DNA of 64,000 nt from Giardia intestinalis (GCA_000002435.2 CM018793.1); one strand, 5' to 3'. Numbered from the stretch's first letter, positions 1 through 20,699 are shown. The notes: generated by a model from the letters alone, not told the origin. A program made the numbers and translations.

Positions 1-7
1 AATTCAC

Positions 8-607
8 TCAGGTAAAGCGTATCTGGCAGGTTTCCATCGCCCTGGCCCTGCAGTAGGGGCATTTGGCGTCTACACGCATTAGCAGCTCCGCGCAGGAGCT
101 GCAGACGCACAGATGCCCGCAGGGGACGAAGGCGTGCGTGCTCTGCTTATCTAAGCAGACGCAGCACTCCCCGTCGGGCAGCTGCACCCTCTTGACGGCT
201 TTGGGGCGGCGGCGGCGTAGGGCGGCTTGCTGTCTCCTGATTATCGTTTGAGCCTTGGCTAAATCGAAACCAAGGCTTCTCGCTGCCCCTTCCGCCCTAT
301 CAAGCTGCTCGTAGAGCTCAGATAGGGCGGTCCCCGCCGTTGTGTATTTGGCCAGGCGCTGCTCTAAAGAGCACTTCTCTTTCCTGGCCTGCGCGCGCTC
401 TGCCCAAAGCTTTTCGCGGAGCCTCTTCACTTTGAGGCCCCGACGCTTCGCCTGGCTGCTCGCCATTGCGAGCAGCTCTTCGGCCGATCGGAGGAGGTCC
501 AGCTCGTCCACCGTAGTGGAATCGAGCTGGAAATCCTCGTCCGGCGTTTGTGGGAAGCCCACAAAGCCGGGGAAGCCGATCATGCAGTCAAAAGGCGGAG
601 TAGTCAT
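8..607 (-). CDS. C-terminal C3HC4 RING-finger protein (E3 ligase-like) with a coiled-coil middle region
   Basis: 199-aa ORF. The C-terminus reads CCVCLDKQSTHAFVPCGHLCVCSSCAELLMRVDAKCPYCRA, which has C-x2-C...C-x-H-x2-C-x2-C...C-x2-C spacing. The region upstream of the ATG is A-rich. The stop lies inside AGTGAAT (reverse complement of nt 1-12). Confidence 0.7.
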   Translation of the reverse strand: MTTPPFDCMIGFPGFVGFPQTPDEDFQLDSTTVDELDLLRSAEELLAMASSQAKRRGLKVKRLREKLWAERAQARKEKCSLEQRLAKYTTAGTALSELYEQLDRAEGAARSLGFDLAKAQTIIRRQQAALRRRRPKAVKRVQLPDGECCVCLDKQSTHAFVPCGHLCVCSSCAELLMRVDAKCPYCRARAMETCQIRFT

Positions 608-702
608 CTGAACGGGACTTTTTCTCTATTTGCAATTTCAATTTAAAATGCTTCTCCGACGTTTATTATCCCTATACTCGTCAATATAGTGTAAATAAGA
701 AA

Positions 703-1191
703 ATGGGCAAGGTCATAAGAGCAGTAAACAGGACAAAGAAGGGCTATGTAGGCGCCCCGCGCAGCGCCCGCTCGACGGAGGTGGTAATTACGCTGCCTCC
801 GCGCGAGTACAGGCGCCTCAGACGCAGCCTCGGGATGACCCGCCCCCCGCCCGAGTTCGCCGAGAAGGGGCGCATTATAAGACACAATAAGCCCTCCCCG
901 GCGCGCAAACGGGCCAGGATAGCCGCCCTAGAGGCCCTGAGGGCGGCCAGGGAGGAGGAGCTCGCCCGCAAGCGCTTCCCGGAGGACAAGGAGTACATAC
1001 TGAGGATCCTCCGCAAGTGGCTGGGCGAGGCGGCGGCGCACGAGAACGCCCAGATCGTGGACTCCCGCGCCGTCTGCGGGCCGAGGGCCGTCCGCCGCAA
1101 GACCGCCGTCCGCCTCCTCCCTCTGGTGCGCCAGTGGCTGCTGGAGCCCCTCAAGGACCTCGTGGCGAGGCTTGAGGCGGCCGAGAAGTAA
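703..1191 (+). CDS. hypothetical basic protein (162 aa, Arg/Lys-rich)
   Basis: The ATG is preceded by gtaaataagaaa. The stop TAA is embedded in AGTAAAT. The competing overlapping ORFs look like GC-rich frame noise. Confidence 0.5.
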   Translation: MGKVIRAVNRTKKGYVGAPRSARSTEVVITLPPREYRRLRRSLGMTRPPPEFAEKGRIIRHNKPSPARKRARIAALEALRAAREEELARKRFPEDKEYILRILRKWLGEAAAHENAQIVDSRAVCGPRAVRRKTAVRLLPLVRQWLLEPLKDLVARLEAAEK

Positions 1192-1206
1192 ATTGCACCG
1201 TTTACT
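1187..1206. terminator. two-armed stop/poly(A) palindrome AGTAAA-N8-TTTACT shared by convergent genes
   Basis: Stops at 1189-1191 (+) and 1202-1204 (-). Each arm reads AGTAAAY on its own strand. Confidence 0.55.
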
Positions 1207-1675
1207 CGTCGTAGCCCTCCTCGAAGAGGTCCCAGGCATGGTAGAAGCTCTCCAGGGCCGCGCACTTGTCGACGTGCTCGAGCTTGAGCGCCCGCCGCTT
1301 CTCCGGGTCGGGCTCGCGCCAGAAGGCCATCGAGCTGATCTTCTGGAAGGCCCGGAGCGCCCGGATCTGGAGGCGACCGTCCCGGGGCGAGAGGACGGCG
1401 GGGAGCAGCTTCTGGCCGAGGAGCCCCTTCCGCGCCATGTACAGCTCGATCATCTCCGCCCGCCAGCGGGTGAGGCAGCGGATCTGGCCCGCGCGGCGCG
1501 CGCTCCGCCTTCTGAACGCGCGGAGGGGGAGCCTCCCGCGCGGGCACTTATCGCAGCGCAGCCAGAACAGGTGGTCCGAGTAGAACGTGATCAGCTCCCA
1601 GAGCTTCCCCTGGGAGACGGAGGCCGGCTGGGCCAGGATCTCGGGCACGAAGCCGAAGGGAGGGAGGTAGGGCAT
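1202..1675 (-). CDS. hypothetical protein (157 aa)
   Basis: The 308-aa ORF was trimmed to Met152 (MPYLPPFGF...) because that ATG follows gaaagaaaaagggcg and the longer form overlaps the next gene. The stop lies in AGTAAAC. Confidence 0.45.
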   Translation of the reverse strand: MPYLPPFGFVPEILAQPASVSQGKLWELITFYSDHLFWLRCDKCPRGRLPLRAFRRRSARRAGQIRCLTRWRAEMIELYMARKGLLGQKLLPAVLSPRDGRLQIRALRAFQKISSMAFWREPDPEKRRALKLEHVDKCAALESFYHAWDLFEEGYDE

Positions 1676-1775
1676 CGCCCTTTTTCTTTCCCGTCCGCAG
1701 AAGCCGATTTGAAGTGGTTTGCAACACATATGTTGCTTGGCCGTTCTGCAACACATATGCTGCCGCGAATAAATA
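1676..1775. promoter_or_regulatory. divergent promoter region with a duplicated GCAACACATATG(T/C)TGC inverted-repeat motif
   Basis: 100-bp spacer between divergent ATGs. The sequence is ttgcaacacatatgttgc...ctgcaacacatatgctgc. The first copy is GCAACA-cata-TGTTGC (6-bp arms). aataaataATG lies at the right end. Confidence 0.4.
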
Positions 1776-4205
1776 ATGACGCGGCGCATCCAGTGCGGAG
1801 GCTCCAGCCTCGAGATCGACCCGCTGACCGGCGAGCTCTCCTTCGAGGACTTCCTGAACACGGCAGAGCCGCCCGAGCAGGACCCGATGCCCGTCCCGAA
1901 GATCGACGTCGGAGGATCGCTGGAGATACTTAACAGCCCGATTGTCGAGGCTATCTTCGGCGACGTCCTTGATAAGCTAGATCTTTTCAAGAAAGATGTC
2001 GACGCGTTCATTGCGATGCTCAAGCAGAAGACGAAGAACGCGATCAATTGGGGGTTAGCGTTAGTCGGCGTGACGACTGTCTCGGGCCTCATGGTCGTCA
2101 TGGTGAGAGAGATCACCATGGCCATCAAGCGCTGGCAGCGAACGAGAGAGTATCAGGACAGTCAGCAGCCAGAAGCCCAGCCGAAGATGATCTCCAAGGA
2201 GAACATGGAGAAGAAGGACGAGATCAGCGAGATTAGCGGCGAAGATGTGGAACCGCCGAGTCTCGGGGAGTACGAGGAGCAGGTGTATGACGAGAACGGC
2301 AACGCCATGTTGAATCCTGACGGCTCGCCGTTGACAAAGACAGTCGTTATCCCCCTCGATCGGGACATCTCCGACCAGTACGACCCAATTCCCGAACCCG
2401 ATGACATCTCAGAAGAGGAAGAGGAGATAGAAGAGGACGAAGTGGAAGAGGAGCCGCCCATCAAGATAACTGATGAGCTGATCAGCGATATCTTCTGGGA
2501 GTTCGACAAGCAGCCCATCCTCAACGAAGAGAACTTCGAGTTCCTCTACGACAGCGGCGTTTACATCATTCACATCCCCCACGTATATATGAAGCGTACA
2601 TGCAAGTTGGGCGGCGACTATGCGGCCTATCCCTGCAAGATGATCGAAAGCATCATCGGACCTGCCTTATGGGACAGATACGGCCATACATTCAAACTGC
2701 GCTTTCCAAACTGCTCACATCAAGTATCTGGTCCCATGGGCACTGAAATCTGTTGTAAGTGTCATATGAATGATTCAGTTCATTGGAGGATACGCGTAAT
2801 ACCGGACGATCAGCCTATATGGTATAACAACGACTGCACGTGCGGCGCTAATTGCAGTTGTCGTTGCCATACCAAGACTCCAGAGAGCGTCTTCACCGTA
2901 ACATACAATTGCGTTTTTTGGTGTGTTCCCTGTGCCACAAGATGTATCTATACCCAGTACGAATCTGACTGTTGGACTCATTACAATTTTTCCACGGATC
3001 GGGGCTTTAGATCAGAAAGTGTCGCCGATAGTAACGGTTTTAGTTCTGCATATATAATACCCGCAGGTAAAAAAATCATACGTTATGAGAGCGAAAACAA
3101 GAACTACCCATATAACTCGCGCGAGTGCTGTGACTTCTGCAAGGTGATGAAGAATTACTTTTACGAAACCGAGGGCTACAAGCTGCACCGCACCAACACA
3201 GAGGTCTACATCTTCTTCTCCCGCGGCGAGAACTCGACAATCTTCGAGAAATGCAACGACCTCTTCAATGGCTATGTGTCCCAGAAGATCCACGACCTTC
3301 TTTCAGACTGGGACGCTGGCAACAATAAGATCATGAATCGACTCAGCATCGACTGTAAGTGCGATGTGAAGCGGCCGCGCTGCACGGACGTCTTCCGAGG
3401 CCTGGGAGAGGTCCATGCTGATACCGTTGGTTTCCTAAAAGGCCATGCCCAGAAGGTCAAATGGATATACCTCCCCGACTACGATTCAAATCTCGGCTTG
3501 CCTTGGTGGTATGACGACCCGCACGACTACCAATCGATCTCGAAGGTCTGCGCATTCGAGGGCTTCCTCGAGCGCAACATCCCCGAGCACGTCATCCGCT
3601 TCTACTCTTACCGCAGACTCACAGACAAGAAGTGGTTCGGGAACCTCTACAAGCAGATCTGCGATGCGATACTCTTGGATTACCCAGACATGCCTGCGGG
3701 CATTGGGGCTGCTGCGCAGAAGTGGAAGGACTTCAACGCATGGAAAGGCATTGATAAGATGCTCAGCGACGTCGTTCCGGTTAAACAGATATATCCCGAA
3801 CAGGTTTATCCTGAGACGCGGCTCTTCACTAGCAAGCCGGCCAACTGGAACCAGCTGAAGCAGCGCGGCGCGAGTTGGACCGGCGAAGTAGAGCCAGAGC
3901 TCGCGTCCTTCAAGCGCTACCTCGACCTCCTCAACAAGTACTACCCGGGCTGGTGGGAGTTCCGGGAGACGCAGGAGCTCGGCTGGTGGGACAATTTCTG
4001 GACCCAGATACCCGACCTCAGGGACCTTGAGCGGACCTCCATCTTCTACTACGAGGACCTCACCATTGACGAGACCCACTATGAGATATACGGCGAACCT
4101 CCTTGGTGGCGCAGTTTCTGGGGGCCGACGATACGAGACAAGGCGCCCGACCCGGAGAGGCCGCGCACATACGAGGAAACAGTTGAAGTGGCAAGTCGAT
4201 ATTAG
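1776..4205 (+). CDS. membrane-anchored protein with an acidic linker, a Cys-rich central domain and a Trp-rich C-terminus (809 aa)
   Basis: A single hydrophobic span, WGLALVGVTTVSGLMVVMV, lies near aa 92-115. An EEEEEIEEDEVEEE tract follows. CxC/CxxC clusters are dense (CTCGANCSCRCH, CVFWCVPCATRC). The C-terminus has PGWWEF..GWWDNFW..PPWWRSFW. The stop lies in TAGTGAAT. Confidence 0.7.
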   Translation: MTRRIQCGGSSLEIDPLTGELSFEDFLNTAEPPEQDPMPVPKIDVGGSLEILNSPIVEAIFGDVLDKLDLFKKDVDAFIAMLKQKTKNAINWGLALVGVTTVSGLMVVMVREITMAIKRWQRTREYQDSQQPEAQPKMISKENMEKKDEISEISGEDVEPPSLGEYEEQVYDENGNAMLNPDGSPLTKTVVIPLDRDISDQYDPIPEPDDISEEEEEIEEDEVEEEPPIKITDELISDIFWEFDKQPILNEENFEFLYDSGVYIIHIPHVYMKRTCKLGGDYAAYPCKMIESIIGPALWDRYGHTFKLRFPNCSHQVSGPMGTEICCKCHMNDSVHWRIRVIPDDQPIWYNNDCTCGANCSCRCHTKTPESVFTVTYNCVFWCVPCATRCIYTQYESDCWTHYNFSTDRGFRSESVADSNGFSSAYIIPAGKKIIRYESENKNYPYNSRECCDFCKVMKNYFYETEGYKLHRTNTEVYIFFSRGENSTIFEKCNDLFNGYVSQKIHDLLSDWDAGNNKIMNRLSIDCKCDVKRPRCTDVFRGLGEVHADTVGFLKGHAQKVKWIYLPDYDSNLGLPWWYDDPHDYQSISKVCAFEGFLERNIPEHVIRFYSYRRLTDKKWFGNLYKQICDAILLDYPDMPAGIGAAAQKWKDFNAWKGIDKMLSDVVPVKQIYPEQVYPETRLFTSKPANWNQLKQRGASWTGEVEPELASFKRYLDLLNKYYPGWWEFRETQELGWWDNFWTQIPDLRDLERTSIFYYEDLTIDETHYEIYGEPPWWRSFWGPTIRDKAPDPERPRTYEETVEVASRY

Positions 4206-4215
4206 TGAATTTACT
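4204..4215. terminator. stop/poly(A) palindrome AGTGAATTTACT shared by convergent genes
   Basis: Stops at 4203-4205 (+) and 4214-4216 (-). Arms are AGTGAAT (+) and AGTAAAT (-). Confidence 0.55.
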
Positions 4216-7090
4216 AATAACTGATGTTTATAGCCGGGTTCTTTGCCCAGTACCAGATCTTCACCCGGTTACCTGAGCCAAGGGATCTCGAATTCGACCA
4301 TGTTAATCGTAGGTTAATGTACGAATCGCTAGTATAGTCCGACCACGAGACTATGATTGTGTCATATGTACTAACGCGACAATCATACGCCTGGATCGAG
4401 ACAATGTCGTCATTGGATCTGCTCTGCATGTCGCTCGGAAAGTCCGCGAGATTCAGTCGCATGAACCCGTTGCCGTCGGTCGTCTGACTCGGCACAAAGC
4501 TCTTCAGCAGACACGGCGTCTTGAGGGCGTTGCATATCCGCTCTGAGTAGCTGCACAGCGTCTCACAGTCAGTAATCCGGCTCAGCTGATTAGAGAGCTG
4601 AGAGGTGTTCTGAGCGATAGAAGCCAGAGCACCCGTGATCTTACCAGCTTGCTGACTGACGTTGTTCGAGATGACCTGCACCTGGTTGTAGAGCTGGTTA
4701 TAACAACTAATGTGCGAGTTCAGAGACGATTGGACACCGCTAATGCGATTCGTGTTCCCTAAGACAGAGTCCCAAATGCCGCGCTCATTCGACTCAAGCG
4801 CATTGATGCGAGTCTCCAGAGCAGGCACATTTCCAACATTGCCATCAAGACGAGTAAGGCTCTCTCGAATCTCGCTGATGCTCTGGTCGACTGCTGTCAT
4901 GTGGCGGTCATGTGCATCTAAGGCGTCCTGCGTAGAGTCTCTCAAGCTCTCTAGTCGACCGTTTATCTCTCTCGCTGAATTGTTAACTGCATCGATAGTA
5001 GTCGCGAACTCTGTCGTTGTCCTCTCTAACGAACCTATCTTCACCTCAGATGCTTCCACTGTCCTGCTCATCCGAGACAGCGATGAAGAGAAGGCTGCAT
5101 TGTCTGTCTCAAAGACGCCTACCTTTTCAGCGAGCCTTCGGATGATCTCGTCCTGTGCAGCAAGGCGTTCTTCAAAAGCGCTTGCCTTTGCGCGCTCCTC
5201 TTCTAACTGTCTCTCAAGAGAGTCGATACGCGCTGCCGTTAATTGAGCGCCCACCTTTGCCTCGACCTTCTGCTGGTCGATGAGCTCTCTGAGATAGTTG
5301 TACGCGCCCTCGAGGTCTCTCTTGATCGTCATAGCATCGATCAGACCTCCCTCGAAGTCGGGAACTGAGATGTCGTTCCGCTCAAAGAACTGTGCGACAA
5401 TGGTCATCAGAATCTCCATGCGGTTCCGGAACTCCATGAGACTGTCCTGGTTACCCTCGAGCACGCTCACGCGGTCCTTCGTTTCATCTAACTGAACGCG
5501 GTCATCGTCAGTGTGACTCGTCAAGTCCCGAATACGCTCTTCAGCTCGCTTTACTTCCAAATGGGTCAAGGTCATATCATCGTTTATGTGTGAGAACTCA
5601 TCCCAAATGAACTGGAAGCGTTTATAAAGATCATCAGTCAGAAACTTGTATATCTTGCCGAACTTATAGTCATGCTGGTCGAGGCGGTACTTCGCTTCCA
5701 CTGCATATGTAAGGGCTACCGCAGCGACGACGCCAAGACACGCGTCTATCACATATCCGGTAATCAAGTTAATCAGATTCAGCTTCCGGAAAAGACCGCC
5801 CCCTGCGGCGATAATAGTATCAAACTCGCCGAGCTTATCCTTCATCAGATCTTCCTTCGTGAACGTCTTCTTCTTGATGAGATCGATCTGGCCCTCGGCG
5901 CGCTTGATGCGAGCCTCTAGAGTCTTCCGCTGCTTCTCGAGACGGTTGATCTTTGAATCGGCTTTCATTGCGTGCTTAGCAAGATAACGCGTTTGATGTG
6001 AGATGCGTCCCTTGCTAAGCTTCTTGAGACTCTTAATGGCTGTAACGTTACCGCCGATCTTGTAGTACTTTCCGAGGTGCTTGCGAAGACCATTGTCCTC
6101 GTCGCCGTCCTCATCGAAGCCCTGAAGCTGTCGATAGAGCCACATTGTCTGCTGGTTGAGCGAGGCGGCCATGAAGTCTGCACGAGACACGCGACCATCG
6201 GGAGAGAGCTTCTGATTGCTGCGACCAGCAAGCGACCCGCCGACCATCTGATAGATATACTGGATCTGCTCGATGACCGGTTGGCTCTTCAAATCGTCTT
6301 CGCTAATAGCGCCCGTCACGCCCTTGATGGAGATATCAGCATCTCTTGCAGCTCGCAGCCCAAACGTCTCAGGCTTCTTTATCTTACGTGGCTTCTTCGG
6401 CTCCTTTGGCTTCCTCTCCTTCTTGAGCTTCTTCTTCTTATCTGTAAGCGGCAGAAGGTCCTCCCGAAAAGCATAGTTGCCCCTTACCATCCACGTGACA
6501 GCAAGGATCTTCTGAACAATCGTCAGGTCGCGCAAATAGTCGAGCTTGTTCGGCGCATTCATATAGTCCTCCGGCTGGAAGTTGTTGTTGAAGCCGACCA
6601 TTGGGACCGACTTGACCTTCGGCTTCGAGAGAGTCTGCCCGGTTAGAGACATCGTATAGAGATCCGCAGGCACAGTCTTGAAGCCCAGTATCTCCTCCAT
6701 GAACTTCACTAGAAACGCTAGACACGGACCCTTCACCGGAGACTCTCCGTCGAAGGCATTGCCGTTCCAGTTCTTGATTTCATAGTTCTCATGATTACAA
6801 TAGTACTTGATGCACTTCTTTCGCTGAGCGGGGTCAAGAAGCTGCACGGCGCAGTGTATTGTCTTCCCGCCAAAGTACCCCGATATGCAGTGAGTCTTGC
6901 TGAGATTCAGGTTAGACCCAAACAGAGCTTTGCGTTCGTCAGGCACTAAGGCACACTGCATCACGTAGTCTTTGATGAGGTTATAATGATACGATGAGAG
7001 TGCGCTGACCTTATCTGCGAACGACTGCATCGACTCTGTCGTCATGAAGACGCCGTCGAGCTGCTCCCTGCGGATGATGAGGTTGTTCAT
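4214..7090 (-). CDS. large protein (958 aa): N-terminal domain, basic KKKKLKKERKPKEPKKPRKIKKPE tract, one central hydrophobic span, long coiled coil and a beta-rich C-terminal head (fibre/spike-like architecture)
   Basis: Uninterrupted 958-aa ORF. The hydrophobic segment is LINLITGYVIDACLGVVAAVALTYAV. About 350 aa of heptad-like sequence follow (RIDSLERQLEEERAK, KIGSLERTTTEF, ETRINALESNERG). The terminal ~100 aa are rich in S/T/Y/W (VSWSDYTSDSYINLRLTWSNS...KIWYWAKNPAINISY). Confidence 0.75.
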   Translation of the reverse strand: MNNLIIRREQLDGVFMTTESMQSFADKVSALSSYHYNLIKDYVMQCALVPDERKALFGSNLNLSKTHCISGYFGGKTIHCAVQLLDPAQRKKCIKYYCNHENYEIKNWNGNAFDGESPVKGPCLAFLVKFMEEILGFKTVPADLYTMSLTGQTLSKPKVKSVPMVGFNNNFQPEDYMNAPNKLDYLRDLTIVQKILAVTWMVRGNYAFREDLLPLTDKKKKLKKERKPKEPKKPRKIKKPETFGLRAARDADISIKGVTGAISEDDLKSQPVIEQIQYIYQMVGGSLAGRSNQKLSPDGRVSRADFMAASLNQQTMWLYRQLQGFDEDGDEDNGLRKHLGKYYKIGGNVTAIKSLKKLSKGRISHQTRYLAKHAMKADSKINRLEKQRKTLEARIKRAEGQIDLIKKKTFTKEDLMKDKLGEFDTIIAAGGGLFRKLNLINLITGYVIDACLGVVAAVALTYAVEAKYRLDQHDYKFGKIYKFLTDDLYKRFQFIWDEFSHINDDMTLTHLEVKRAEERIRDLTSHTDDDRVQLDETKDRVSVLEGNQDSLMEFRNRMEILMTIVAQFFERNDISVPDFEGGLIDAMTIKRDLEGAYNYLRELIDQQKVEAKVGAQLTAARIDSLERQLEEERAKASAFEERLAAQDEIIRRLAEKVGVFETDNAAFSSSLSRMSRTVEASEVKIGSLERTTTEFATTIDAVNNSAREINGRLESLRDSTQDALDAHDRHMTAVDQSISEIRESLTRLDGNVGNVPALETRINALESNERGIWDSVLGNTNRISGVQSSLNSHISCYNQLYNQVQVISNNVSQQAGKITGALASIAQNTSQLSNQLSRITDCETLCSYSERICNALKTPCLLKSFVPSQTTDGNGFMRLNLADFPSDMQSRSNDDIVSIQAYDCRVSTYDTIIVSWSDYTSDSYINLRLTWSNSRSLGSGNRVKIWYWAKNPAINISY

Positions 7091-7159
7091 TATTTATTTT
7101 CCCCACTCACACCAACCATTTGAAAGTGGAATCTGTTCTGAGAAAATAAAATGACGTAA
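7091..7159. promoter_or_regulatory. conserved bidirectional intergenic cassette (copy C1) with a 2-codon uORF ATG-ACG-TAA abutting the polB ATG
   Basis: The sequence is tatttattttcc...CCAACCATTTGAAAGTGGAATCT...GAGAAAATAAAATGACGTAAATG. Related cassettes lie at 11795-11867, 18294-18365 and 19231-19343, with an orphan at 20700-20747. Confidence 0.5.
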
Positions 7160-10756: not shown

Positions 10757-10763
10757 ATTTACT
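10752..10763. terminator. perfect 12-bp stop/poly(A) palindrome AGTAAATTTACT
   Basis: Stops at 10754-10756 (+) and 10763-10765 (-). Confidence 0.6.
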
Positions 10764-12122: not shown

Positions 12123-12131
12123 ACGTTTACT
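12118..12131. terminator. perfect 14-bp stop/poly(A) palindrome AGTAAACGTTTACT
   Basis: Stops at 12120-12122 (+) and 12127-12129 (-). Confidence 0.6.
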
Positions 12132-12723: not shown

Positions 12724-12754
12724 GCTTATTTTATTTTCCTGGGAGCCCTGTAAC

Positions 12755-12826: not shown

Positions 12827-12839
12827 GTGAATTCGATGT

Positions 12840-13679: not shown

Positions 13680-13701
13680 ATTTTATTTTCCTCCCCGCCC
13701 T

Positions 13702-14161
13702 GAATCAATTAATCAGATCAGAATCAATTCGTCAGAATGGTTTGCACTTCCTGACTGCCGCCTCCCAGAAAAAAAAAATAACGCTGGCCTGCTTTCTGCT
13801 TTCGGGCTGTCTGTATGTCGCACTTCGGTGTCGTGCGGGCCCGGGGGCAGGGAGCAGACCAGGCTGGCCGGCAGCTGAACCGGGCGCGAACGCATCACAC
13901 ACATCCAAGGACAACGCGGTCTCCTCCCGGCGTGCACGGCACCACGCTGGGCGGTTCCGGGGGGAGGCCGCGATTTTTTTTGAAAATTTACAGGTTTTTT
14001 ATTCTGTTGAAAAGTAGGTAAACGAGCGCCAGCGTGTGGGAGCCTAGTGGGCGGACCGGCACACGCAGACGCACTTGTGGGGGACGCTTTCGTTTTTTTG
14101 GGCCCAGCCCCGTGCAGGCCCAAAAAAACGAAAGTGGGCACCACAAGGATATATACTACTG
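13702..14161. repeat. repeat module R, copy A (~460 bp)
   Basis: Colinear with 19809-20231. The order is a GAATCA array, A10-TAACGCT, a conserved core GTATGTCGCAC..GGTGTCGTGCGGGC, ~190 bp of GC-rich sequence, T8 and an AT-rich tract, an 18-bp-stem hairpin (14087-14134), then GGATATATACTACTG. Homology stops abruptly after this last motif. Confidence 0.85.
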
Positions 14162-17100
14162 ACGCCCGCCGTCATCACGTTCCTCCGCGGCTGGAAGGTC
14201 TTCGCAGACGGCGACGACGCGCACCGGCACTACCTCAACGCGGTTACGAAGGACGCGGCGCAGATCCACGGCGTCCAGTCTGCAGAGCCCGGCGAGATGC
14301 TCTACTGCTTCAACTGGGACCCGGTCTTCGGGGGCACTGAGAGCGACCCCGAGAACCCCCACAACGCGCTCTTCTCGTTCGGGACGATGTACGAACCCGT
14401 CTTCTTCTTCCAGATCCAGATCGTGCGCATGAAGGATGGCCAGCGGAAGTTCATCCACCGGCGCGGCGGCCTGGCCCCCTTCACGAACGACTCGTTCTTC
14501 GACCTCAACCGCTACCAGATCGAGCGGACAGGCGAAGGCTTTCGGAACAGCAAGGACACGTGCTTCCTCTACGCTCTCAAGCAGAGCGGGCAGCTGAACG
14601 ACGAGGAGATCAAGGCCGCGGCGCTCCACATCAACCAGGCGGCGGTCACGTTCGCGATGGTCGACGCGATCGGCAAGCAGCTCTTCATCTGCTTCCACAT
14701 GCACATGCCGGACAGGGTCGTCCTCCGGGGCGCACAGAAGGGCCGCAAGCTCCCGCCCGGCGTCGCACTCCGGAACATCCAGATAGGCTTCGACTTCAAC
14801 CACTACTACATCTTCGACGAGAAGCTCCCCTACAGCAAGGCGTACGTGAACCACGCGTCCGTGATGATGGAGCACAACGCGTACCCGGAGAACGCGAACG
14901 TCCGCGAGGTCAGCGTCCGGAACACCTTCCACCCGGAGACCCGGGAGCCGATGCAGAAGGTCGTCTTCGGCTACCACCGCGACGACGACCCCCACACGTG
15001 CACGAGCCGCGACCTCCTCCTCTCGCTCCACAAGCAGGGCCTCCTCCGCCCGATCCGCTCAGACGACCTCCTCGCCGTCAAGGAGTCCTTCATCCGCGAG
15101 GAACACTACGCGGAGGACAACCTCGAGTTCTGCGAGAACCAACTCAAGAAGATCGAGCCCAAGAAGAAGCAGGCCCCGCCGAAGGACGTCTGGTTCGCGG
15201 ACTTCGAGACGACGACCGACGGGGACCAGCACCACCCGTTCCTCCTCTGCTTCCACGGGGCGAACAATGTGACGGGGACTACTGGGCGAAGGACTACACA
15301 GCATCGGGGACATGGTCCAGCGGCCTTCCCGCCTCGCGACCTCAACCGGCCCCAGCTGGTTACTTCACAACCTCAACTACGACGGGGCCTTCGTCCTCCC
15401 GTACTTCGACGTCAAAAGGACAGCATCGTCACCCTCGGGGCGAGCAAGATCATCGCGTTCACATCCACATCCGACTGAGCGACGACCGGAAGAACAAGCC
15501 GATCCCGATCCACTTCCGGGACTCCTACGCCCTGATCACGGCGCCCCTCAGCAAGTTCGGGAAGATGTTCAACCTCGACGTCCACAAGGAGGTCCTCCCG
15601 TACTCGTTCTACACGCAGGAGAACGTCCGCAAGCTCGCAGAGGGCTACCGGCCGACCCTCGAGGAGTACCTCTCGTACGAGATGGAGAGCAGACGGACCG
15701 AGCTCGAGCAGCTGGTCCGCATGCTGCCGGGGATGCTCGTCGAGGACCGCGTCGATGCGCTCCGCTACGCCCACTACTACTGCGCGCGGGACTGTCACGT
15801 GCTCAAGGAGGGCGTCCTCCGCTTCCGGCAGCAGCTCCTCGAGGTCACCGGGATCGACGCGTTCACGTCCATGACTCTCCCGAGCGTCGCGTACAACTAC
15901 CTCATCAACGAGAAGTGCTTCGAGGGCTGCTTCAACCTCAACACGGCTCCGCTTCTCTTCGTGCGCCAGTGCGTGACGGGCGGGCGCTGCATGCTCCGGA
16001 ACAACGAGAAGCAGTACGTCGAGGGCGAGATCATGGACTTCGACGCGGTCTCCCTGTACCCGTCCGCAATGGCGCGCATCTACACCCTCAAGGGCCACCC
16101 GAAGGTCGTCGACCCCGAGAAGCACGACCTCGGCTGGCTCCTCCGCCAGGACGGCTGCTTCCTCGAGATAGACATTCAGATCGTCCCGAAGACCCTCGAC
16201 TTCCCCCTCATCAACCGCCAGACGGAGAAGGGCCGCCACTTCTCAAACGAGCCAGGCCCGATGTTCGCGGACAACATCACGATCGAGGACATCATCGAGT
16301 ACCACAAGGTCCCGATGAACCGAATCCGCGTCCTCCGGGGCTACTACTACGACGAGGGGAAGAACTTCGCCATCCAGACCGTTATCCGGAAGCTCTTCGA
16401 TACGCGCCTCAAGTTCAAGGCGGAGGGCAACCCCCTTGAGAGCATCTACAAGCTCATCATGAACAGCTGCTACGGGAAAAGCATCCTCAAGCCCGTCTTC
16501 AAGCGGATGAACACCGTCGACCGGGCCGGGCTCGAGCGGGAGCTCCTCGACAACTCCGCCGACATCCTCTGCTGGGAGCCGCTCTACGACGGCGGCCGCT
16601 TCCTCCTCAAGCAGAGCCGCCCGCTCCTCATGGCGAACAGCTTCCCGACGTTCGGCGTCCAGGTCCTCTCGATGAGCAAGCGCATCATGACGGAGGTGAT
16701 GGCAACGGCCCAGGACCACGCGCTCCCGATCTACTACACGGACACCGACAGCATCCACATCGACAAGCGGTCAATAGAGCCGCTCCGGAACTACTTCCAC
16801 GCGCGCTTCCACCGCGAGCTCATCGGCAAGAACCTCGGCCAGTTCCACTCGGACTTCCCCGACAGCCCCTCCGGCGAGATGTTCGTCAGCCGCTTCTTCG
16901 TCGGCGTCGGCAAGAAGGCGTACCTCGACATCCTCCAGGACAGCCAGGGCCACATGAGCTACCACGCGCGCCTCAAGGGCATCCCCGAGCAGGCGATCCT
17001 CAACGAGGCCCGCCAGCGCTGCGCCCAGAACTTCCTCGGCGGGCTCTACAACCTCTACGCCGACCTCTACAACGGCGTCCCCCAGACCTTCAACCTCATC

Positions 17101-17229
17101 TACGACGGCGCCGTCCGCTTCGTCCGCGACGCGCACCTCGCCTACCGCTGCCGCGACGACTTCAAGCGCCGCGTCATCTTCGAGAAGGAGCCCGACGCGC
17201 CCCTGAACGTCGTCAAGCTCATGCAGTGA
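14162..17229 (+). pseudogene. second pPolB copy, 5'-truncated (starts at the equivalent of aa ~173) and frame-broken around Exo II
   Basis: The 14075-15478 frame and the 14560-17229 frame together are colinear with polB aa ~173-1198. Motifs A, B, C and KKAY are intact (DFDAVSLYPSAM, KLIMNSCYGKS, YYTDTDS). A net 10 nt are missing between 15274 and 15474. There is no ATG or promoter at the 5' junction with module R. Confidence 0.85.
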
Positions 17230-17236
17230 ATTTACT
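17225..17236. terminator. stop/poly(A) palindrome AGTGAATTTACT
   Basis: Stops at 17227-17229 (+) and 17232-17234 (-). Confidence 0.55.
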
Positions 17237-18293
17237 CCATGCTGCTCTCCTCGTCGCGCGCAAGGACCTCCTGGAACTCATCAAACGACAAGGCCATCAT
17301 CTGCATGCGGCGCTTGAACGGATTGACGAACCTCCCATATGCGGTCCAATCGCAGAGCTCGTTGAAGAAGACAAACGCGTTGATCCTGCGCATCCCGATC
17401 TGGACGAAGTAGCGGCGGTCCTCGCCGAGGAAGAGAGTATTCTCGACAACGTACTGGCGCGTCACCCTCGCGGCCGCGACGAGCGAGAACTGGTTCCCCG
17501 CCGAGAAGGCCTTGCTCCACTCGGTGTCCGCTGGATGGTTCAGGTTGAAGACCGGCGTGTAGACGCCCTTGTGCTTGAGGAGGAACTCGTTCGTCTTACT
17601 CACGACCCCGAGCGCGTCCTCCTCGCACTGGCGGTGTTCCTCCTCAGCAGCGCGCTGGACGATACGCTGCGCACAGATCAGCGGGTCCGTCGCAAAGCGG
17701 ACGTGTGTCGCCGGAAGGATCCCCGCGTACGACATGTAGACGTCGATCAGGTAGTGGAGGTACATCGCCTGGCGGCCCGTAATATGGCCCTCCTGCACCT
17801 GGAAAAGGACGAACGCACTCGTCGAGGGCAGCCAGCGGTCGAAGATGACGAGGTCGTAGTCCTTGTACTTGTCCGTGAAGCGGTACTCGAGGAGCTGGTC
17901 TGCGAGAGCATGTGTGACGGCGAGCTGGAAGCGGTACGCGTTGGCGTGCGGGTCCCTGTAATACTCGTCGAGCGTGATCCCGTACGCGCTGAAGCACTCG
18001 AGCCCCACAACCTCCTCGATGACCACTGCCTTCAGCCCGCTGTCCTGGGCGTGCTCGACAAGGCGGCGGCAGAAGAGGGACTTGCCGGCCCCGATGGGTC
18101 CGTCGACGACAATCATGCGCGGATCGACGCACGCCGGCGGGATGACGGATGCGTGCCGCGCCAGGCTCAACCCGCGAAGAGTGGACAGCTTCGAGTTCAC
18201 CTCGAGCAGCTCCTCGGACACGTCGTAGTAGAGGCTCGAGTGGCGGACAAGCTCGGTCCCGGGCTGGTTCTGGGGCTCGTAGTACAGGCTCAT
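17232..18293 (-). CDS. deoxynucleoside kinase family protein, divergent paralog of 10763-11794
   Basis: The start was trimmed to MSLYYEPQNQ, which follows ggaaataaa. The P-loop is VVDGPIGAGKSL. Also present are LDEYYRDPHANAYRFQ, VIFDRWLPSTSAF and HYLIDVYM. The ORF is intact. Roughly half its residues are shared with copy 1. Confidence 0.72.
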   Translation of the reverse strand: MSLYYEPQNQPGTELVRHSSLYYDVSEELLEVNSKLSTLRGLSLARHASVIPPACVDPRMIVVDGPIGAGKSLFCRRLVEHAQDSGLKAVVIEEVVGLECFSAYGITLDEYYRDPHANAYRFQLAVTHALADQLLEYRFTDKYKDYDLVIFDRWLPSTSAFVLFQVQEGHITGRQAMYLHYLIDVYMSYAGILPATHVRFATDPLICAQRIVQRAAEEEHRQCEEDALGVVSKTNEFLLKHKGVYTPVFNLNHPADTEWSKAFSAGNQFSLVAAARVTRQYVVENTLFLGEDRRYFVQIGMRRINAFVFFNELCDWTAYGRFVNPFKRRMQMMALSFDEFQEVLARDEESSME

Positions 18294-18365
18294 TTTATTT
18301 CCTGGCGGCCTCCCCAATAAATGCCAAAGCATTTGAAAGTGAATTCTCCCGCCAAAAATAAAAGT
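18294..18365. promoter_or_regulatory. conserved bidirectional intergenic cassette (copy C3)
   Basis: The sequence is tttatttcc...GCCAAAGCATTTGAAAGTGAATTCTCCCGCCAAAAATAAAAGTATG. Confidence 0.5.
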
Positions 18366-18617
18366 ATGGCAGGCCACCTCCTCAGCAGCAAGGGGACCAC
18401 GAAAAACGAGAACAAGCTCTTCACCCAGAAGCCGACGCCCTTCTACGACGCAGGCACCGTCCCGGTCCGCCTCGCGTCCGTGCCCTTCGAGAACCGCAAC
18501 GAGCCGATTCGCGTCCAGATCGACGAGCCGCCCAAGCCCCGCCCTCGCGCAGGCCTCGTCCGCACCCGCAAGAGGCTGATCCCGAGGAACCGCTGGAAGA
18601 AGAACACGTACCAGTAA
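18366..18617 (+). CDS. small basic protein (83 aa), paralog of 11868-12122
   Basis: The protein reads MAGHLLSSKGTTKNENKLFTQKPTPFYDAGTVPVRL... About 70 of its first 79 residues are identical to copy 1. Confidence 0.55.
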   Translation: MAGHLLSSKGTTKNENKLFTQKPTPFYDAGTVPVRLASVPFENRNEPIRVQIDEPPKPRPRAGLVRTRKRLIPRNRWKKNTYQ

Positions 18618-18626
18618 ATGTTTACT
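18613..18626. terminator. stop/poly(A) palindrome AGTAAA-tg-TTTACT
   Basis: Stops at 18615-18617 (+) and 18622-18624 (-). Confidence 0.55.
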
Positions 18627-19230
18627 TCGAGATCTCCTCGAGGAAGCGAGCGAACGTGCCCGGCTCGGTCGAGGCGTTGAGGAAGCACTGGATGCCCTCT
18701 GCCCACTGCAGCGCCTGCTCGTCGGTGAGGCACGGACTTGTCGCCGTGTACGAGCGCTTGAACTTCGGGAGCCGCGACAGCCTCACTAACTCCTCCCCGG
18801 TCTCCTCTAAGAGGTAGAAGGCAGAGCGCACTCCATCTGATGCTCGCCTGCAGAAGGCGGTGTAGTGGGGCGCGCGCACGAACTCGTCCTCGGGCCTCTT
18901 GACGAAGCGGAAGATGACCCCGAGCTGGTTGAGCCACTGGCAGAACCAGGCCGTGACTCGCTCGTAGTCCTCCGTGCCCTCGGCGCAGTCGGCAGTAATG
19001 CGGCCCAGTAGTCTTCCCACCTGGCCACAGAAGCTCTTGAAGGGCGGGCCGGCGCGGGCGGATGTCTGCTGTGCGGGCTCGGGGTGCGAAGTCTGCTGAA
19101 CGGGGTCGGGGTCGGCGTGCGCTCGAGCCTTGAGGGGGCTTCGCTTGCGAGAGGATCCTCGAGGAGGGAGGGCGATGTCTTGCGTGAAGAGGTCCTCGGT
19201 GTAATGCTCAGGAATGATGCCATCTGCCAT
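18622..19230 (-). CDS. hypothetical protein (202 aa), paralog of 12127-12723
   Basis: The start was trimmed to MADGIIPEHY, matching copy 1. The core FKSFCGQVGRLLGR.TA.CAEGTEDY.RVT.WFC.WLNQ.GV.FRFVKRPEDEFV.APHYTAFCRRASDG is shared. Confidence 0.6.
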   Translation of the reverse strand: MADGIIPEHYTEDLFTQDIALPPRGSSRKRSPLKARAHADPDPVQQTSHPEPAQQTSARAGPPFKSFCGQVGRLLGRITADCAEGTEDYERVTAWFCQWLNQLGVIFRFVKRPEDEFVRAPHYTAFCRRASDGVRSAFYLLEETGEELVRLSRLPKFKRSYTATSPCLTDEQALQWAEGIQCFLNASTEPGTFARFLEEISK

Positions 19231-19343
19231 GCGTCCTTTTATTTTCTTGACGCTCCTATCATAAAGACGCAAACCATTTCAAATCCACTTCTACCAAACA
19301 ATATTAAATTCACTTCCTTCCGGCGTCTGCAGAAAAAAAAAAA

Positions 19344-19787
19344 ATGCTGGACCTCCGCAAGCTTAACAAGGAGGACTTCGAGCAGGCCATAGCCACCTTC
19401 ATCGAGCGTGCTCTTGACCTCGAACGGCCGGAAGATCTGAACAAAGACGAGCCGATTTATAACAGAAGCTATCTCCAGATCGACCCCGTCACGCACGGAG
19501 AGTATAACCTCACCCCGGCCGTTCTCTGGTCGCTGATAGTTATGACACTGACCTCCTATGGCCTTACAATGTTTACTGAGGACGACTGTCTTTGCGTGCA
19601 ATATGGCAAAATATACAAGTTTCCCATCGAGCCGGCAGACGAAGACGTTCTCAGAGAGATACACTATGCCATACACGTTGAAGCGACAGAAGACTTGGAA
19701 CTCTTCCCCCAGACCGAAGAGGAGATCGTGGCAGCGTTCAAACAGATACTTGGCGGACAGATAGAATTCCACATCCGACCCAAGTAA
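19344..19787 (+). CDS. hypothetical acidic protein (147 aa), found only in unit 2
   Basis: The ATG directly follows an ~11-nt A-run. The stop lies in AAGTAAAC. No paralog is present in unit 1. It occupies the slot held by the ankyrin gene in unit 1. Confidence 0.5.
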   Translation: MLDLRKLNKEDFEQAIATFIERALDLERPEDLNKDEPIYNRSYLQIDPVTHGEYNLTPAVLWSLIVMTLTSYGLTMFTEDDCLCVQYGKIYKFPIEPADEDVLREIHYAIHVEATEDLELFPQTEEEIVAAFKQILGGQIEFHIRPK

Positions 19788-19808
19788 ACCTGCGCTCCTC
19801 GGTCATGC

Positions 19809-20231
19809 GAATCAATTCCCGAATCAGAATCAAATCAAAATCAATTCGTCACAATTAATTGCACGAGGGGTCTCACAGGGCTCAGAAAAAAAAAATTACG
19901 CTGACCTGCCGGGCTGTCTGTATGTCGCACCTCGGTGTCGTGCGGGCCCGACAGGCTGGCTGGCTGGCCGGCAGCTGAACTGAGCCTCGAACGTACCACA
20001 CCCACAACGCGTCTCCTCCCGGCGTGCACAGTTCACGCTGGGCGGTTCCGGGGGGAGGCGCGTTTTTTTTAGAAAAATTACAGGTTTTTTATTCTATCAA
20101 AAATCATAATGTTTGGACGGGAGATTGCAGCAGGGAGAACAAAATCGCGGCGGTCGTTTTCGTTTTTTTGGGTAAGGCCCCCGGCCGGCCCAAAAAAACG
20201 AAAGCGGGCGCCTCGAGGATATATACTACTG
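19809..20231. repeat. repeat module R, copy B (~423 bp)
   Basis: Same element order as copy A: GAATCA array, A10-TTACGCT, GTATGTCGCACCTCGGTGTCGTGCGGGC, GC-rich core, T8, hairpin at 20158-20203, GGATATATACTACTG. Confidence 0.85.
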
Positions 20232-20359
20232 GCGTGCTCCCTGTAGAGGTGATCGCGCTCTCTACGTTGATCGAGCACGATATTGTACAACTTCTTCACT
20301 TTGAGGTTGCGGCGCCTTATTTGGGTTCTAGCTCGTTCAAAGAGCTCCCCGTCGGTTCT

Positions 20360-20445
20360 AACAGGCCCCAGCTCGTCCACTTCCACAGCCTCAACTACGA
20401 CGGGGCTTTCATCCTTCGACATCAAGGAGGACTCCATCGTCACCG
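20360..20445 (+). pseudogene. third, isolated pPolB fragment covering only the Exo II region
   Basis: It translates to RPQLVHFHSLNYDGAFI....DSIVT, compared with polB NRPQLVYFHNLNYDGAFVLPYFDVKKDSIVT. The flanks are unrelated to polB. Confidence 0.65.
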
Positions 20446-20699
20446 CACGAGGCACCCCGCAGGTCCGGGAGGGCCCGAGCATCGGCCAATCCACGACAGC
20501 ACCAACGATGGCGAAGCAGACCCACAACCATCCCACACTCTGGGCCGGACTCCCGCCCCGCGGGCCCTACTCTGCCCCGCCGCCGCTGGCCCTGCGCCCT
20601 GGGTCGGAGCGGCGGCCCGCGCCCCCGCAAGCCTCTCGGCCGCCGGAGATGCCGCGGCGCCACGCGCTGGGCCGCCCCGGGACCCGGCGCCGTCTTCCA

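What the first reader, a model, noticed from the sequence alone, without database searches (positions are those of the whole stretch)
1..20450. Virus-like island built around a protein-primed DNA polymerase, expressed with host-type signals but lacking all canonical Polinton/adenovirus partners
Seen: a complete pPolB-type polymerase with every Exo and Pol motif. It sits in a block of 9-10 tightly packed genes whose orientation strictly alternates (- + - + ...). The block includes a dNK, a RING protein, two large membrane-anchored proteins and several orphans. It is followed by truncated or scrambled extra copies of its own genes. Established: in eukaryotes, pPolB genes are hallmarks of Polintons/Mavericks, adenoviruses and linear plasmids, not of chromosomal replication. 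Inference: this is an integrated or resident self-replicating element or endogenous virus of a diplomonad. Every island gene uses the same A/T-rich initiator-at-ATG and AGTRAAY-at-stop grammar as the host genes at 24-64 kb. That argues for long nuclear co-adaptation rather than a recent foreign insertion. I could not recognise an rve/tyrosine integrase, a double-jelly-roll capsid, an FtsK-type packaging ATPase or an adenain-like protease. So either these lie outside the window (the left edge is cut) or the element is of a new type.
Basis: partly seen in the sequence, partly recalled or inferred. Interest (0 to 1): 0.85.

Follow-up and report, generated by a model that had tools for sequence, protein, structure and literature searches.

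The report
Integrated Polinton-like virus in Giardia
The island is the right-hand half of a roughly 26-kb integrated Polinton/Maverick-type DNA virus in the Giardia intestinalis WB chromosome; its capsid, packaging and integrase genes lie just left of the window, so it is a new member of a known kind of element, not a new type.

Summary
Window 1-13,679 carries ten packed genes, including a complete protein-primed DNA polymerase, a deoxynucleoside kinase and a RING protein. Nine of the genes alternate in strand. Degraded extra copies follow up to position 20,444.

The interpretation "lacks all canonical partners" comes from where the window was cut. The window is Giardia intestinalis WB. The 11.4 kb directly to its left encodes:
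- an A32-type packaging ATPase (above the Pfam threshold);
- an rve-type integrase.

The element is about 26 kb long. It has terminal inverted repeats of about 480 bp that end in 5'-AGTAGTATATATCC next to a conserved hairpin. The right end is at window 14,160.

The "extra copies" are not local duplications. They are remnants of a second, different lineage and of a third copy. Each full-length terminus abuts an internal breakpoint of an older copy.

Related elements occur in assemblages A1, A2, B and E and in unnamed samples. They are mosaic (dS 0.04-0.99 from gene to gene) and under purifying selection.

Two things are unusual. No maturation protease was found, and the integrase has Asn where the catalytic Glu is expected. 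No description of this element was found in the searchable literature.

The parts
8..607 (-). RING-finger protein (199 aa). It is the first element gene inside the window; the element continues to the left.
   Evidence: Pfam zf-C3HC4_3, E=2.9e-13. Orthologues sit at the same position in L004, L007, L012 and L015. It is only 47% identical to the SRR27755824 copy.
703..1191 (+). 162-aa basic orphan protein (GL50803_19667).
   Evidence: Intact ORF. 94% identical in L007, dN/dS 0.28. No family match.
1202..1729 (-). 175-aa orphan protein.
   Evidence: Called as 175 aa in independent assemblies. 96% identical in L007, dN/dS 0.42. Its stop and poly(A) signal overlap those of the convergent 162-aa gene.
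1776..4205 (+). 809-aa protein (GL50803_3666). It has a conserved N-terminal module with one hydrophobic segment (aa 90-113) and an acidic stretch, followed by a Cys/Trp-rich region of about 570 aa.
   Evidence: Hydropathy scan. The alignment shows that only the first ~230 aa are shared with the 247-aa protein of the distant relative L006. dN/dS 0.25. No family match. A role as a virion membrane or entry protein is inference only.
4214..7090 (-). 958-aa protein (GL50803_16686). It has a central hydrophobic segment (aa 437-466), long coiled coils and a beta-rich C-terminal domain.
   Evidence: Only coiled-coil-type matches (SMC, tape measure). Hydropathy scan. The C-terminal ~400 aa are conserved in L006 at 33% identity, E=5e-46 to 1e-65. 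dN/dS 0.17. A spike or fibre role is inference only.
7091..7159 (.). 69-bp divergent promoter region between the 958-aa gene and the polymerase gene. It holds two opposed GAAAATAAA motifs.
   Evidence: Motifs at 7093-7101(-) and 7142-7150(+). The window has 8 such motifs where 0.18 are expected by chance, and 7 of them lie in the island, mostly directly before an ATG.
7160..10756 (+). [quoted passage not shown] About 515 aa lie N-terminal to the exonuclease domain and may act as the terminal (priming) protein.
   Evidence: PF03175, E=5e-37. PHROG DNA polymerase, 7e-40. Motifs aligned to phi29 polymerase. Twelve homologue clusters at 54-98% identity. dN/dS 0.12. The terminal-protein role of the N-terminal region is inferred by analogy with linear plasmids.
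10763..11794 (-). Element-encoded deoxynucleoside kinase (343 aa, KAE8305705.1).
   Evidence: PF01712, E=1.4e-15. Weak match to Drosophila dNK in the PDB. Conserved in every lineage, including L006. It is distinct from the two cellular non-TK1 dNKs named in PMC11662666.
11868..12122 (+). 84-aa basic, proline-rich protein (old GL50803_26442). It is the most conserved gene of the element.
   Evidence: 87-98% identical across lineages in which the polymerase is 78-85% identical. dN/dS 0.05. A DNA-condensing or core-protein role is inference.
12127..12723 (-). 198-aa orphan protein (GL50803_60433).
   Evidence: Orthologues in all G. intestinalis-type lineages at 55-95% identity. dN/dS 0.13. No family match.
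12840..13679 (-). Ankyrin-repeat protein (279 aa). It is the right terminal, inward-facing gene of the element.
   Evidence: Pfam Ank_2, E=4e-61. Present at the same place in the 25.5-kb contig of SRR27755824 (84% aa identity). The 26 nt before its ATG are identical to the 26 nt before the ATG of the left terminal 148-aa gene, so its promoter is part of the inverted repeat.
13680..14160 (.). Right terminal inverted repeat of copy 1 (481 bp). It ends with the terminus 5'-AGTAGTATATATCC, read on the minus strand at 14147-14160.
   Evidence: Window 13725-14159 is the reverse complement of the left flank of L012 (positions 1-434) at 92.7% identity. The inner 30-mer lies at 13695-13724. The terminal motif is conserved in six further termini, and two contigs end at it: L006 exactly, and L012 one base short of the first A.
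14087..14134 (.). Conserved palindrome (hairpin or dimer-binding site) 27 nt inside the terminus.
   Evidence: DNA fold -27.2 kcal/mol, z=-6.3. The palindrome is kept with different sequences in L001, L019 and L006.
14161..17229 (+). Copy 2: polymerase pseudogene. It lacks codons 1 to ~165-172 and is broken by several frameshifts around ExoII.
   Evidence: It is closer to the L004 lineage (87.5% nt over the whole of copy 2) than to copy 1. It starts at the base after the terminus of copy 1.
17232..19230 (.). Copy 2: dNK (17232-18332, -), 84-aa-like gene (18366-18617, +; GL50803_1499) and 198-aa-like gene (18622-19230, -).
   Evidence: These are 44-46%, 89% and 65-66% identical in protein to the copy-1 genes, but 76%, 88% and 74% identical to the L004 lineage.
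19344..19787 (+). 147-aa orphan ORF at the position where copy 1 has the ankyrin gene. Possibly a lineage-specific terminal cargo gene.
   Evidence: No homologue in any fetched locus and no family match.
19818..20230 (.). Degenerate right terminal inverted repeat of copy 2, with an intact terminal motif at 20217-20230.
   Evidence: 72-73% identical to 13699-14164. Terminal motif and hairpin shown.
20330..20444 (+). Copy 3: polymerase remnant of about 100 nt (ExoII region).
   Evidence: A further piece resembling the inverted repeat lies at 20750-20790.

Best explanation
Window 1-14,160 is the right-hand 14 kb of an integrated virus of about 26 kb of the Polinton/Maverick (polintovirus) kind in the Giardia intestinalis WB chromosome.

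Gene content (shown):
- The left half lies outside the window. It carries the virion module (penton-like protein, A32-type packaging ATPase, double-jelly-roll major capsid protein) and an rve-type integrase.
- The right half is the finding. It carries the replication module (protein-primed polymerase and dNK), accessory genes (RING, ankyrin) and two large proteins, each with one predicted membrane segment.
- The element is bounded by inverted repeats of about 480 bp.

How it probably works (inferred):
- The genome replicates as linear DNA from both ends by protein priming. The N-terminal ~515 aa of the polymerase may act as the primer. The doubled AGT at the terminus (AGTAGT) would allow a jump-back, as at the adenovirus CATCAT end.
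- The dNK supplies dNTPs in a host that has no ribonucleotide reductase.
- Genes are transcribed by the host machinery from short A-rich promoters at each ATG, and are polyadenylated at AGTRAAY signals that overlap the stop codons.
- The capsid genes package the genome.
- The integrase joins the exact termini to chromosomal DNA.

The sequence from 14,161 to about 20,800 is not a duplication of copy 1. It holds the remnants of an older copy from another lineage and of a third copy. Each is cut at an internal point, with the intact terminus of a younger copy abutting it. The locus is therefore a nest of successive insertions.
For: Identity of the window: exact matches to G. intestinalis WB proteins on a 4.02-Mb chromosome.

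Left half:
- L008 and L016 are 100% identical to window 1-7536 and continue 11.4 kb to the left.
- The genes there are annotated in the WB reference as consecutive hypothetical proteins, KAE8305690-98.

ATPase: Pfam Pox_A32 at 25.4 and 26.9 bits, against a cut-off of 22.8, in two orthologues.

Integrase:
- Weak but concordant matches to rve, IS481, IS30 and a phage transposase over the same residues.
- A match at E=3.9e-4 in a search of 1.84 billion proteins to P0265, which itself passes the Pfam thresholds for rve and Chromo.

Ends: inverted repeats and a conserved terminus.

Lineage of copy 2.

Termini abutting internal breakpoints: seen in WB twice, in DH and in L019.

Selection and mosaicism: dN/dS 0.05-0.55 for the ten window genes, and dS from 0.04 to 0.99 depending on the gene.

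Spread:
- The capsid family has 38 clusters, including P15, DH and GS proteins.
- The ATPase cluster includes WB, P15, DH and GS.
Against: - No adenain/Ulp1-like maturation protease was found.
- The integrase scores below the Pfam threshold. It has Asn, invariant, where the catalytic Glu is expected, so its activity is unproven.
- Both structure models have modest confidence (pLDDT 58 and 62).
- No target-site duplication could be read, because the DNA to the left of the left terminus in WB could not be fetched.
- The left inverted repeat of the WB copy is inferred from a near-identical copy in another sample (L012).
- No expression, particle or episome data were available.
- At 26 kb it is larger than the 15-20 kb usually quoted for Polintons (PMC4642659).
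Confidence: 0.9

Rival explanations
1. One reading: a new type of polymerase-based element with no capsid, packaging ATPase or integrase, which maintains itself by other means.
For: Inside the window itself no such genes are detectable.
Against: The genes lie immediately to the left, on DNA that is 100% identical to the window over 7.5 kb. They fall between the same inverted repeats and are syntenic in five lineages.
Confidence: 0.02
2. A domesticated or host-co-opted element. The island is a fixed, vertically inherited locus that Giardia keeps for its own use, for example as an antiviral defence like integrated virophages or PLVs, or as a source of dNK activity.
For: - All ORFs of copy 1 are intact and under purifying selection.
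- It uses host-type signals.
- The integrase lacks the canonical catalytic Glu, which could mean loss of mobility.
- Giardia depends on deoxynucleoside salvage (PMC11662666).
Against: - Many diverged lineages coexist, with capsid proteins 41-96% identical.
- Divergence is mosaic along the element.
- Different terminal cargo genes occur, and degraded copies sit beside intact ones.
- Precise termini are joined to different internal breakpoints in WB, DH and L019.
- Among named genomes, intact polymerases appear only in WB and P15.
These are features of an active mobile population, not of one fixed locus.
Confidence: 0.05
3. Copy 1 is really an extrachromosomal linear virus or plasmid genome that was joined to the chromosome by the assembly.
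For: - Short-read contigs of WB-type samples stop at the inverted repeat.
- Two metagenome contigs end at or within one base of the AGTAGTA terminus.
Against: - In the window, the terminus of copy 1 runs without a break into the truncated polymerase of copy 2, and on into housekeeping genes.
- Contig breaks at a 480-bp inverted repeat are expected from short reads.
- The same kind of terminus-to-internal junction is seen in the independent DH and L019 assemblies.
Confidence: 0.03

Closest known systems
Polintons/Mavericks (polintoviruses), as defined in PMC4642659; they include the copies in the metamonad Trichomonas vaginalis
   Same: Protein-primed family B polymerase plus an rve-type integrase. 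In the relative P0265 the integrase carries a C-terminal chromodomain; in the Giardia protein there is an SH3-like region instead. Also shared: double-jelly-roll capsid protein, penton, A32/FtsK-type packaging ATPase, long terminal inverted repeats, and integration in a eukaryotic chromosome in several copies.
   Different: No maturation protease was detected. The integrase has Asn in place of the catalytic Glu. At about 26 kb it is larger than the quoted 15-20 kb. It carries extra genes (dNK, RING, ankyrin, two large proteins with predicted membrane segments). The capsid protein of the G. intestinalis lineages has an insertion of about 375 aa between the two jelly rolls. A target-site duplication was not verified.
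Mavirus-type virophages
   Different: Mavirus has a cysteine protease and depends on a giant virus. There is no sign of a giant-virus partner in Giardia. The capsid model is closer to the PBCV-1 and ASFV capsid proteins than to that of mavirus.
Adenoviruses and adintoviruses
   Same: Linear DNA with inverted terminal repeats. The terminus begins with a doubled trinucleotide followed by an A/T-rich stretch (AGTAGTATATAT here; adenovirus CATCATCAAT is recalled from memory). Both use a protein-primed polymerase and a double-jelly-roll capsid. A small, very basic protein is present.
Polinton-like viruses (PLVs)
   Same: Capsid protein, penton and ATPase without a maturation protease. They integrate in protist genomes and have mosaic gene content.
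   Different: By the definition in PMC4642659, PLVs generally lack the polymerase-plus-integrase pair that this element has.
Cytoplasmic and mitochondrial linear plasmids
   Same: Protein-primed polymerase with a long N-terminal extension, and terminal inverted repeats.
   Different: Plasmids have no capsid, packaging ATPase or integrase, and they are not chromosomal.

Membership tests
Polinton/Maverick (polintovirus) | [quoted passage not shown] | tested here: met
   PF03175, E=5e-37, 128 bits against a cut-off of 25.8. Exo and Pol motifs are present and align to phi29 polymerase.
Polinton/Maverick (polintovirus) | Retrovirus-like (rve) integrase gene in the same element | tested here: met
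   GL50803_34151, 342 aa, lies about 4 kb to the left of the window. It matches Pfam rve at 20.5 bits (below the 32.6 cut-off), a PHROG transposase at 8e-4, and IS30/IS481 at about 0.01, all over residues 8-92. In a search of 1.84 billion proteins it matches P0265 at E=3.9e-4, and P0265 passes the thresholds for rve (37.2 bits) and Chromo (40.1 bits). Homology is therefore supported through an intermediate sequence.
Polinton/Maverick (polintovirus) | Intact D,D,E catalytic triad in the integrase | tested here: not met
   D15 and D71 are present. At the position of the Glu in the ERFNRTLK motif of P0265, the WB, DH, SRR27755824 and L006 proteins all have Asn (INRFCRSLR). E96 and D99 are invariant nearby. 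Activity cannot be judged from sequence.
Polinton/Maverick (polintovirus) | Double-jelly-roll major capsid protein | tested here: met
Polinton/Maverick (polintovirus) | Penton (minor capsid) protein | tested here: met
Polinton/Maverick (polintovirus) | FtsK/HerA (A32-like) packaging ATPase | tested here: met
   Pfam Pox_A32 at 25.4 bits (WB) and 26.9 bits (L006), against a cut-off of 22.8.
Polinton/Maverick (polintovirus) | Adenain/Ulp1-like maturation protease (present in nearly all Polintons) | tested here: inconclusive
   None of the 19 proteins matches a protease family in Pfam, and those also scanned against PHROGs or NCBIfam match none there either. The small orphans were not folded, so a divergent protease cannot be excluded.
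Polinton/Maverick (polintovirus) | Long terminal inverted repeats | tested here: met
   About 480 bp. The window's right end matches the left end of the near-identical copy L012 at 92.7%. The inner 50 bp are inverted at both ends of the 25.5-kb contig.
Polinton/Maverick (polintovirus) | Short target-site duplication flanking the insertion (6 bp is recalled from memory) | not testable with these tools
   Both flanks of the same copy were never available. The DNA to the left of the WB left terminus could not be fetched.
Adenoviridae / adintoviruses | Hexon-type capsid protein, adenain protease, separate terminal-protein gene | tested here: not met
Linear plasmids with protein-primed polymerase | No virion genes; extrachromosomal | tested here: not met
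   Capsid, penton and ATPase genes are present. The element is embedded in a chromosome next to housekeeping genes.
Polinton-like viruses (PLV) | Capsid module without the polymerase-plus-integrase pair | tested here: not met
   Both the polymerase and the integrase are present.

The most novel reading that the evidence does not exclude
Copy 1 is a replication-competent, possibly infectious DNA virus of Giardia. This family of 20-26-kb linear viruses would circulate and recombine among G. intestinalis assemblages and related diplomonads. They would replicate by protein priming from AGTAGT termini and integrate with an unusual D,D,N integrase. Two metagenome contigs that stop at or within one base of the terminus would then be free virus genomes. 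To my knowledge, recalled from memory and not checked, only RNA viruses have been isolated from Giardia, so this would be its first dsDNA virus and a natural starting point for a large-capacity vector.
Probability: 0.35. Interest if true: 0.8.

Novelty: new member of a known kind. Interest (0 to 1): 0.55.

Why it matters
- Giardia is usually described as almost free of DNA transposons, and only RNA viruses have been isolated from it (both recalled from memory). A complete Polinton-type virus with every reading frame intact sits in the reference strain, where nearly all of its genes are annotated as hypothetical proteins.
- It varies among assemblages A1, A2, B and E. It would therefore extend this virus class to diplomonads.
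- It would explain a block of isolate-variable "hypothetical" genes.
- It adds element-encoded dNKs to an organism whose DNA synthesis depends wholly on deoxynucleoside salvage, a pathway under study as a drug target.
- It offers candidate tools: defined replication ends, compact promoters and poly(A) signals, and an integrase.
- The conserved terminus with its hairpin, and the Asn-for-Glu integrase, are concrete and testable oddities.

Tried and rejected
- The polymerase was searched against IMG/VR viral contigs. No pattern matched.
- Single sequences were searched against PDB sequences for the capsid candidate, the penton candidate, the L006 693-aa protein and the polymerase. Nothing useful came back. 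The polymerase profile gave only a weak phi29 match at E=0.05. The integrase profile matched no integrase.
- At first I read the 25,504-bp contig that ends in 50-bp inverted repeats as a free linear genome. I rejected this once L012 showed that the repeat extends about 435 bp further out, so the contig ends are repeat-induced breaks.
- I considered that copy 2 is a local duplication of copy 1. I rejected this because copy 2 is closer to the L004 lineage than to copy 1.
- I looked for a protease among the 209-aa, 198-aa and small orphan proteins, by alignment and by Pfam at E<=1. No catalytic pattern or match appeared.
The job went through after the sequences had been looked up in the protein collection.
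- I tried to reach the DNA to the left of the WB left terminus through several protein look-ups. Only short-read contigs that stop at the repeat were returned.
- Paper searches for the gene identifiers and for Giardia together with Polinton, Maverick, adintovirus or capsid terms found no description of the element. They found only the polymerase used as a leaf ("Giain") in a tree in PMC4642659.

Full report
**Where the window comes from.** Exact protein look-ups place the window on a 4.02-Mb chromosome of Giardia intestinalis WB (ATCC 50803). The polymerase is XP_001707488.1, "putative DNA polymerase". Most of its neighbours are annotated as hypothetical proteins. From about 24 kb rightwards the window carries ordinary housekeeping genes: SF-assemblin/giardin, Glu/Gln-tRNA synthetase, a proteasome ATPase, WD40 proteins and an Spt6-like protein.

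**The observation.** The described genes are all there.
- The 1198-aa ORF at 7160-10756 matches Pfam DNA_pol_B_2 at E=5e-37.
- It carries ExoI, ExoII and motifs A, B and C. A profile built from 11 family members aligns these to the same motifs of phi29 polymerase.
- A dNK, a RING protein and an ankyrin-repeat protein are recognised by Pfam.
- The 809-aa and 958-aa proteins each have one strongly hydrophobic segment.
- Nine consecutive genes alternate in strand. The tenth, the ankyrin gene, does not.
- Self-comparison shows that 14,160-19,249 repeats 7,677-12,741, and that about 100 nt at 20,330-20,444 repeat part of the polymerase.

**The island continues to the left.** The polymerase has 12 homologue clusters at 54-98% identity, from WB, P15 and unnamed ENA and Logan assemblies. 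The contigs that carry them keep the gene order 809/958/polymerase/dNK/84/198 and show further conserved genes upstream of the RING gene.

Looking up the window's own RING protein returned contigs that are 100% identical to window 1-7536 and run on to the left. Together they cover 11.4 kb. Going leftwards from the RING gene, that stretch encodes proteins of:
- 209 aa;
- 773 aa;
- 342 aa (integrase);
- 872 aa (major capsid protein);
- 181 aa;
- 129 aa;
- 314-342 aa (packaging ATPase);
- 445-488 aa (penton-like protein);
- 148 aa.

In the WB reference these are the consecutive hypothetical proteins KAE8305690-98.

**What the left-hand genes are.**
- *ATPase.* It passes the Pfam Pox_A32 threshold in WB and in a distant relative (25.4 and 26.9 bits, cut-off 22.8).
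- *Integrase.* The 342-aa protein gives weak but concordant matches to rve, IS481, IS30 and a phage transposase over residues 8-92. A search of 1.84 billion representative proteins found only seven relatives. One of them, P0265 (E=3.9e-4), is a canonical rve-plus-chromodomain integrase.
- *An oddity in the integrase.* The aligned catalytic Glu of P0265 (ERFNRTLK) is an invariant Asn in all Giardia-type sequences and in another distant relative.
- *Protease.* No protease was found.

**Ends of the element.**
- A 25,504-bp contig (L014 plus L007) runs from the 148-aa gene to the ankyrin gene and ends in 50-bp inverted repeats.
- The same inner repeat lies at window 13,695-13,724.
- The repeat is longer than that. 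Window 13,725-14,159 is the reverse complement of the 434 bases outside the inner repeat at the left end of a near-identical copy, L012, at 92.7% identity.
- The inverted repeat is therefore about 480 bp. It reaches from each terminus to the ATG of an inward-facing terminal gene, and the 26 nt before the two ATGs are identical.
- The outer end reads 5'-AGTAGTATATATCC. This motif recurs at the end of copy 2 (20,217-20,230), in L001, L019 and DH, and in the distant relative L006. The L006 contig stops exactly there, and the L012 contig stops one base short of the first A.
- Next to the terminus is a palindrome with an 18-bp stem (fold z=-6.3). Other lineages keep the palindrome with a different sequence.
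- From these landmarks copy 1 spans roughly window -11,850 to 14,160, about 26 kb. The WB left repeat is inferred from L012.

**The extra copies.**
- Copy 2 (14,161-20,230) is 87.5% identical in DNA to the L004 lineage over its whole length. Against copy 1 it is only 68-89% identical, depending on the gene. So it comes from another lineage and is not a duplicate of copy 1.
- Its polymerase starts at about codon 165-172, directly after the terminus of copy 1, and has several frameshifts.
- It has its own degenerate repeat with an intact terminus, followed by a third small remnant.
- In DH, the terminus of an inverted copy abuts codon 173 of the 809-type gene of another copy.
- In L019, a terminus abuts fragments of a 198-type gene.
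- Precise termini joined to varied internal breakpoints fit integrase-mediated insertion into resident copies. In a compact genome these may be the only tolerated targets. This remains an inference, because no target-site duplication could be read.

**Dynamics.**
- Between copy 1 and the SRR27755824 element, dN/dS is 0.05-0.55 for all ten window genes. dS ranges from 0.04 (175-aa gene) and 0.08 (polymerase) to 0.90 (RING) and 0.99 (958-aa gene).
- In the left half, the capsid proteins are only 54% identical, whereas the integrase is 99% identical.
- This is a recombining population of functional elements, not a static island.
- The relative L006 is about 20 kb, with a polymerase 54% identical to the window's. 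It has the same core genes in a different order, the same terminus, and the same A-rich-ATG and AGTRAAY grammar. Its host is therefore probably also a Giardia-like organism.

**Signals.**
- AGTRAAY overlaps the stop codon in 16 of 19 element genes. Among 14 host genes in the window it occurs within -9 to +35 of the stop in only 5.
- GAAAATAAA occurs 8 times in the window where 0.18 are expected, 7 of them in the island.
It shows adaptation of the virus lineage to Giardia's transcription machinery, not the age of this insertion.

**Literature.**
- PMC4642659 defines Polintons by the polymerase-plus-integrase pair. It says most also have the ATPase and the protease, and that they encode both capsid proteins. 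It includes a Giardia polymerase in a tree.
- I found no paper that describes the element or its capsid genes. The library is incomplete.
- PMC11662666 counts two non-TK1 dNKs in Giardia, and neither is the element's gene.

**Verdict.** The reading "no canonical partners, or a new type" is refuted by the DNA just outside the window. The element is a Polinton/Maverick-type integrated virus, apparently undescribed in diplomonads. Its notable peculiarities are the missing protease, the D,D,N integrase, the extra dNK, RING, ankyrin and predicted membrane proteins, the AGTAGT terminus with its hairpin, and the nested insertions.

Noticed in passing
window 14087-14134; also L001 ~16,700-16,790, L019 ~5,490-5,560, L006 ~17,900-17,965: A palindrome with an 18-20-bp stem and a T7/A7 tract lies about 27 nt inside every terminus. 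The pairing is kept although the sequence differs between lineages, which suggests a protein-binding or hairpin element of the replication origin.
   Followed up: partly
L016 6512-7540 (integrase GL50803_34151, about 4 kb left of the window): The third catalytic residue of the rve triad is an invariant Asn (INRFCRSLR, against ERFNRTLK in the canonical relative P0265). The family has only seven relatives among 1.84 billion representative proteins.
   Followed up: partly
window 10763-11794 and 17232-18332: WB carries two element-encoded dNK genes, 44-46% identical to each other, in addition to the two cellular non-TK1 dNKs counted in the literature. Giardia has no de novo dNTP synthesis, so these could matter for work on nucleoside-analogue drugs.
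   Followed up: partly
window 20,450-24,300: A G+C-rich stretch (59-63%) between the last element remnant and the first housekeeping gene. It has no ORF of 300 aa or more starting at ATG, GTG or TTG, and no match to any element protein. Its origin is unknown.
   Followed up: partly
L019 1-5,482: A second element copy lies inverted. The two termini face each other 1.4 kb apart, around a palindromic pair of 198-type gene fragments. Both are preceded by the same CCCTCATTACAC. This could be a real inverted duplication or a chimera of the long-read assembly.
   Followed up: no
L016 3878-6496 compared with L006 16196-17722: The capsid protein of the G. intestinalis lineages (868-1024 aa) carries an insertion of about 375 aa, partly helical and of low complexity, between the two jelly rolls. 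The L006 lineage has a compact form of 505-509 aa.
   Followed up: partly
window 11868-12122: The 84-aa basic, proline-rich protein is the most conserved gene of the element (dN/dS 0.05; 87-98% identity across lineages). It was dropped from the current WB annotation: only the old GL50803_26442 entry matches it.
   Followed up: partly
window 7094-10375 (-), 7708-10062 (+), 14156-15031 (-) and others: Very long ORFs run antisense to, or out of frame with, the polymerase genes. They are rich in Arg, Ala, Glu and Val. They look like by-products of the G+C-rich codon usage, not genes.
   Followed up: no
L016 1871-2899 and 476-1942: Gene models for the ATPase (342 or 314 aa) and the penton (445 or 488 aa) differ between annotations. 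The 314-aa and 488-aa pair avoids an overlap and agrees with the other lineages.
   Followed up: partly
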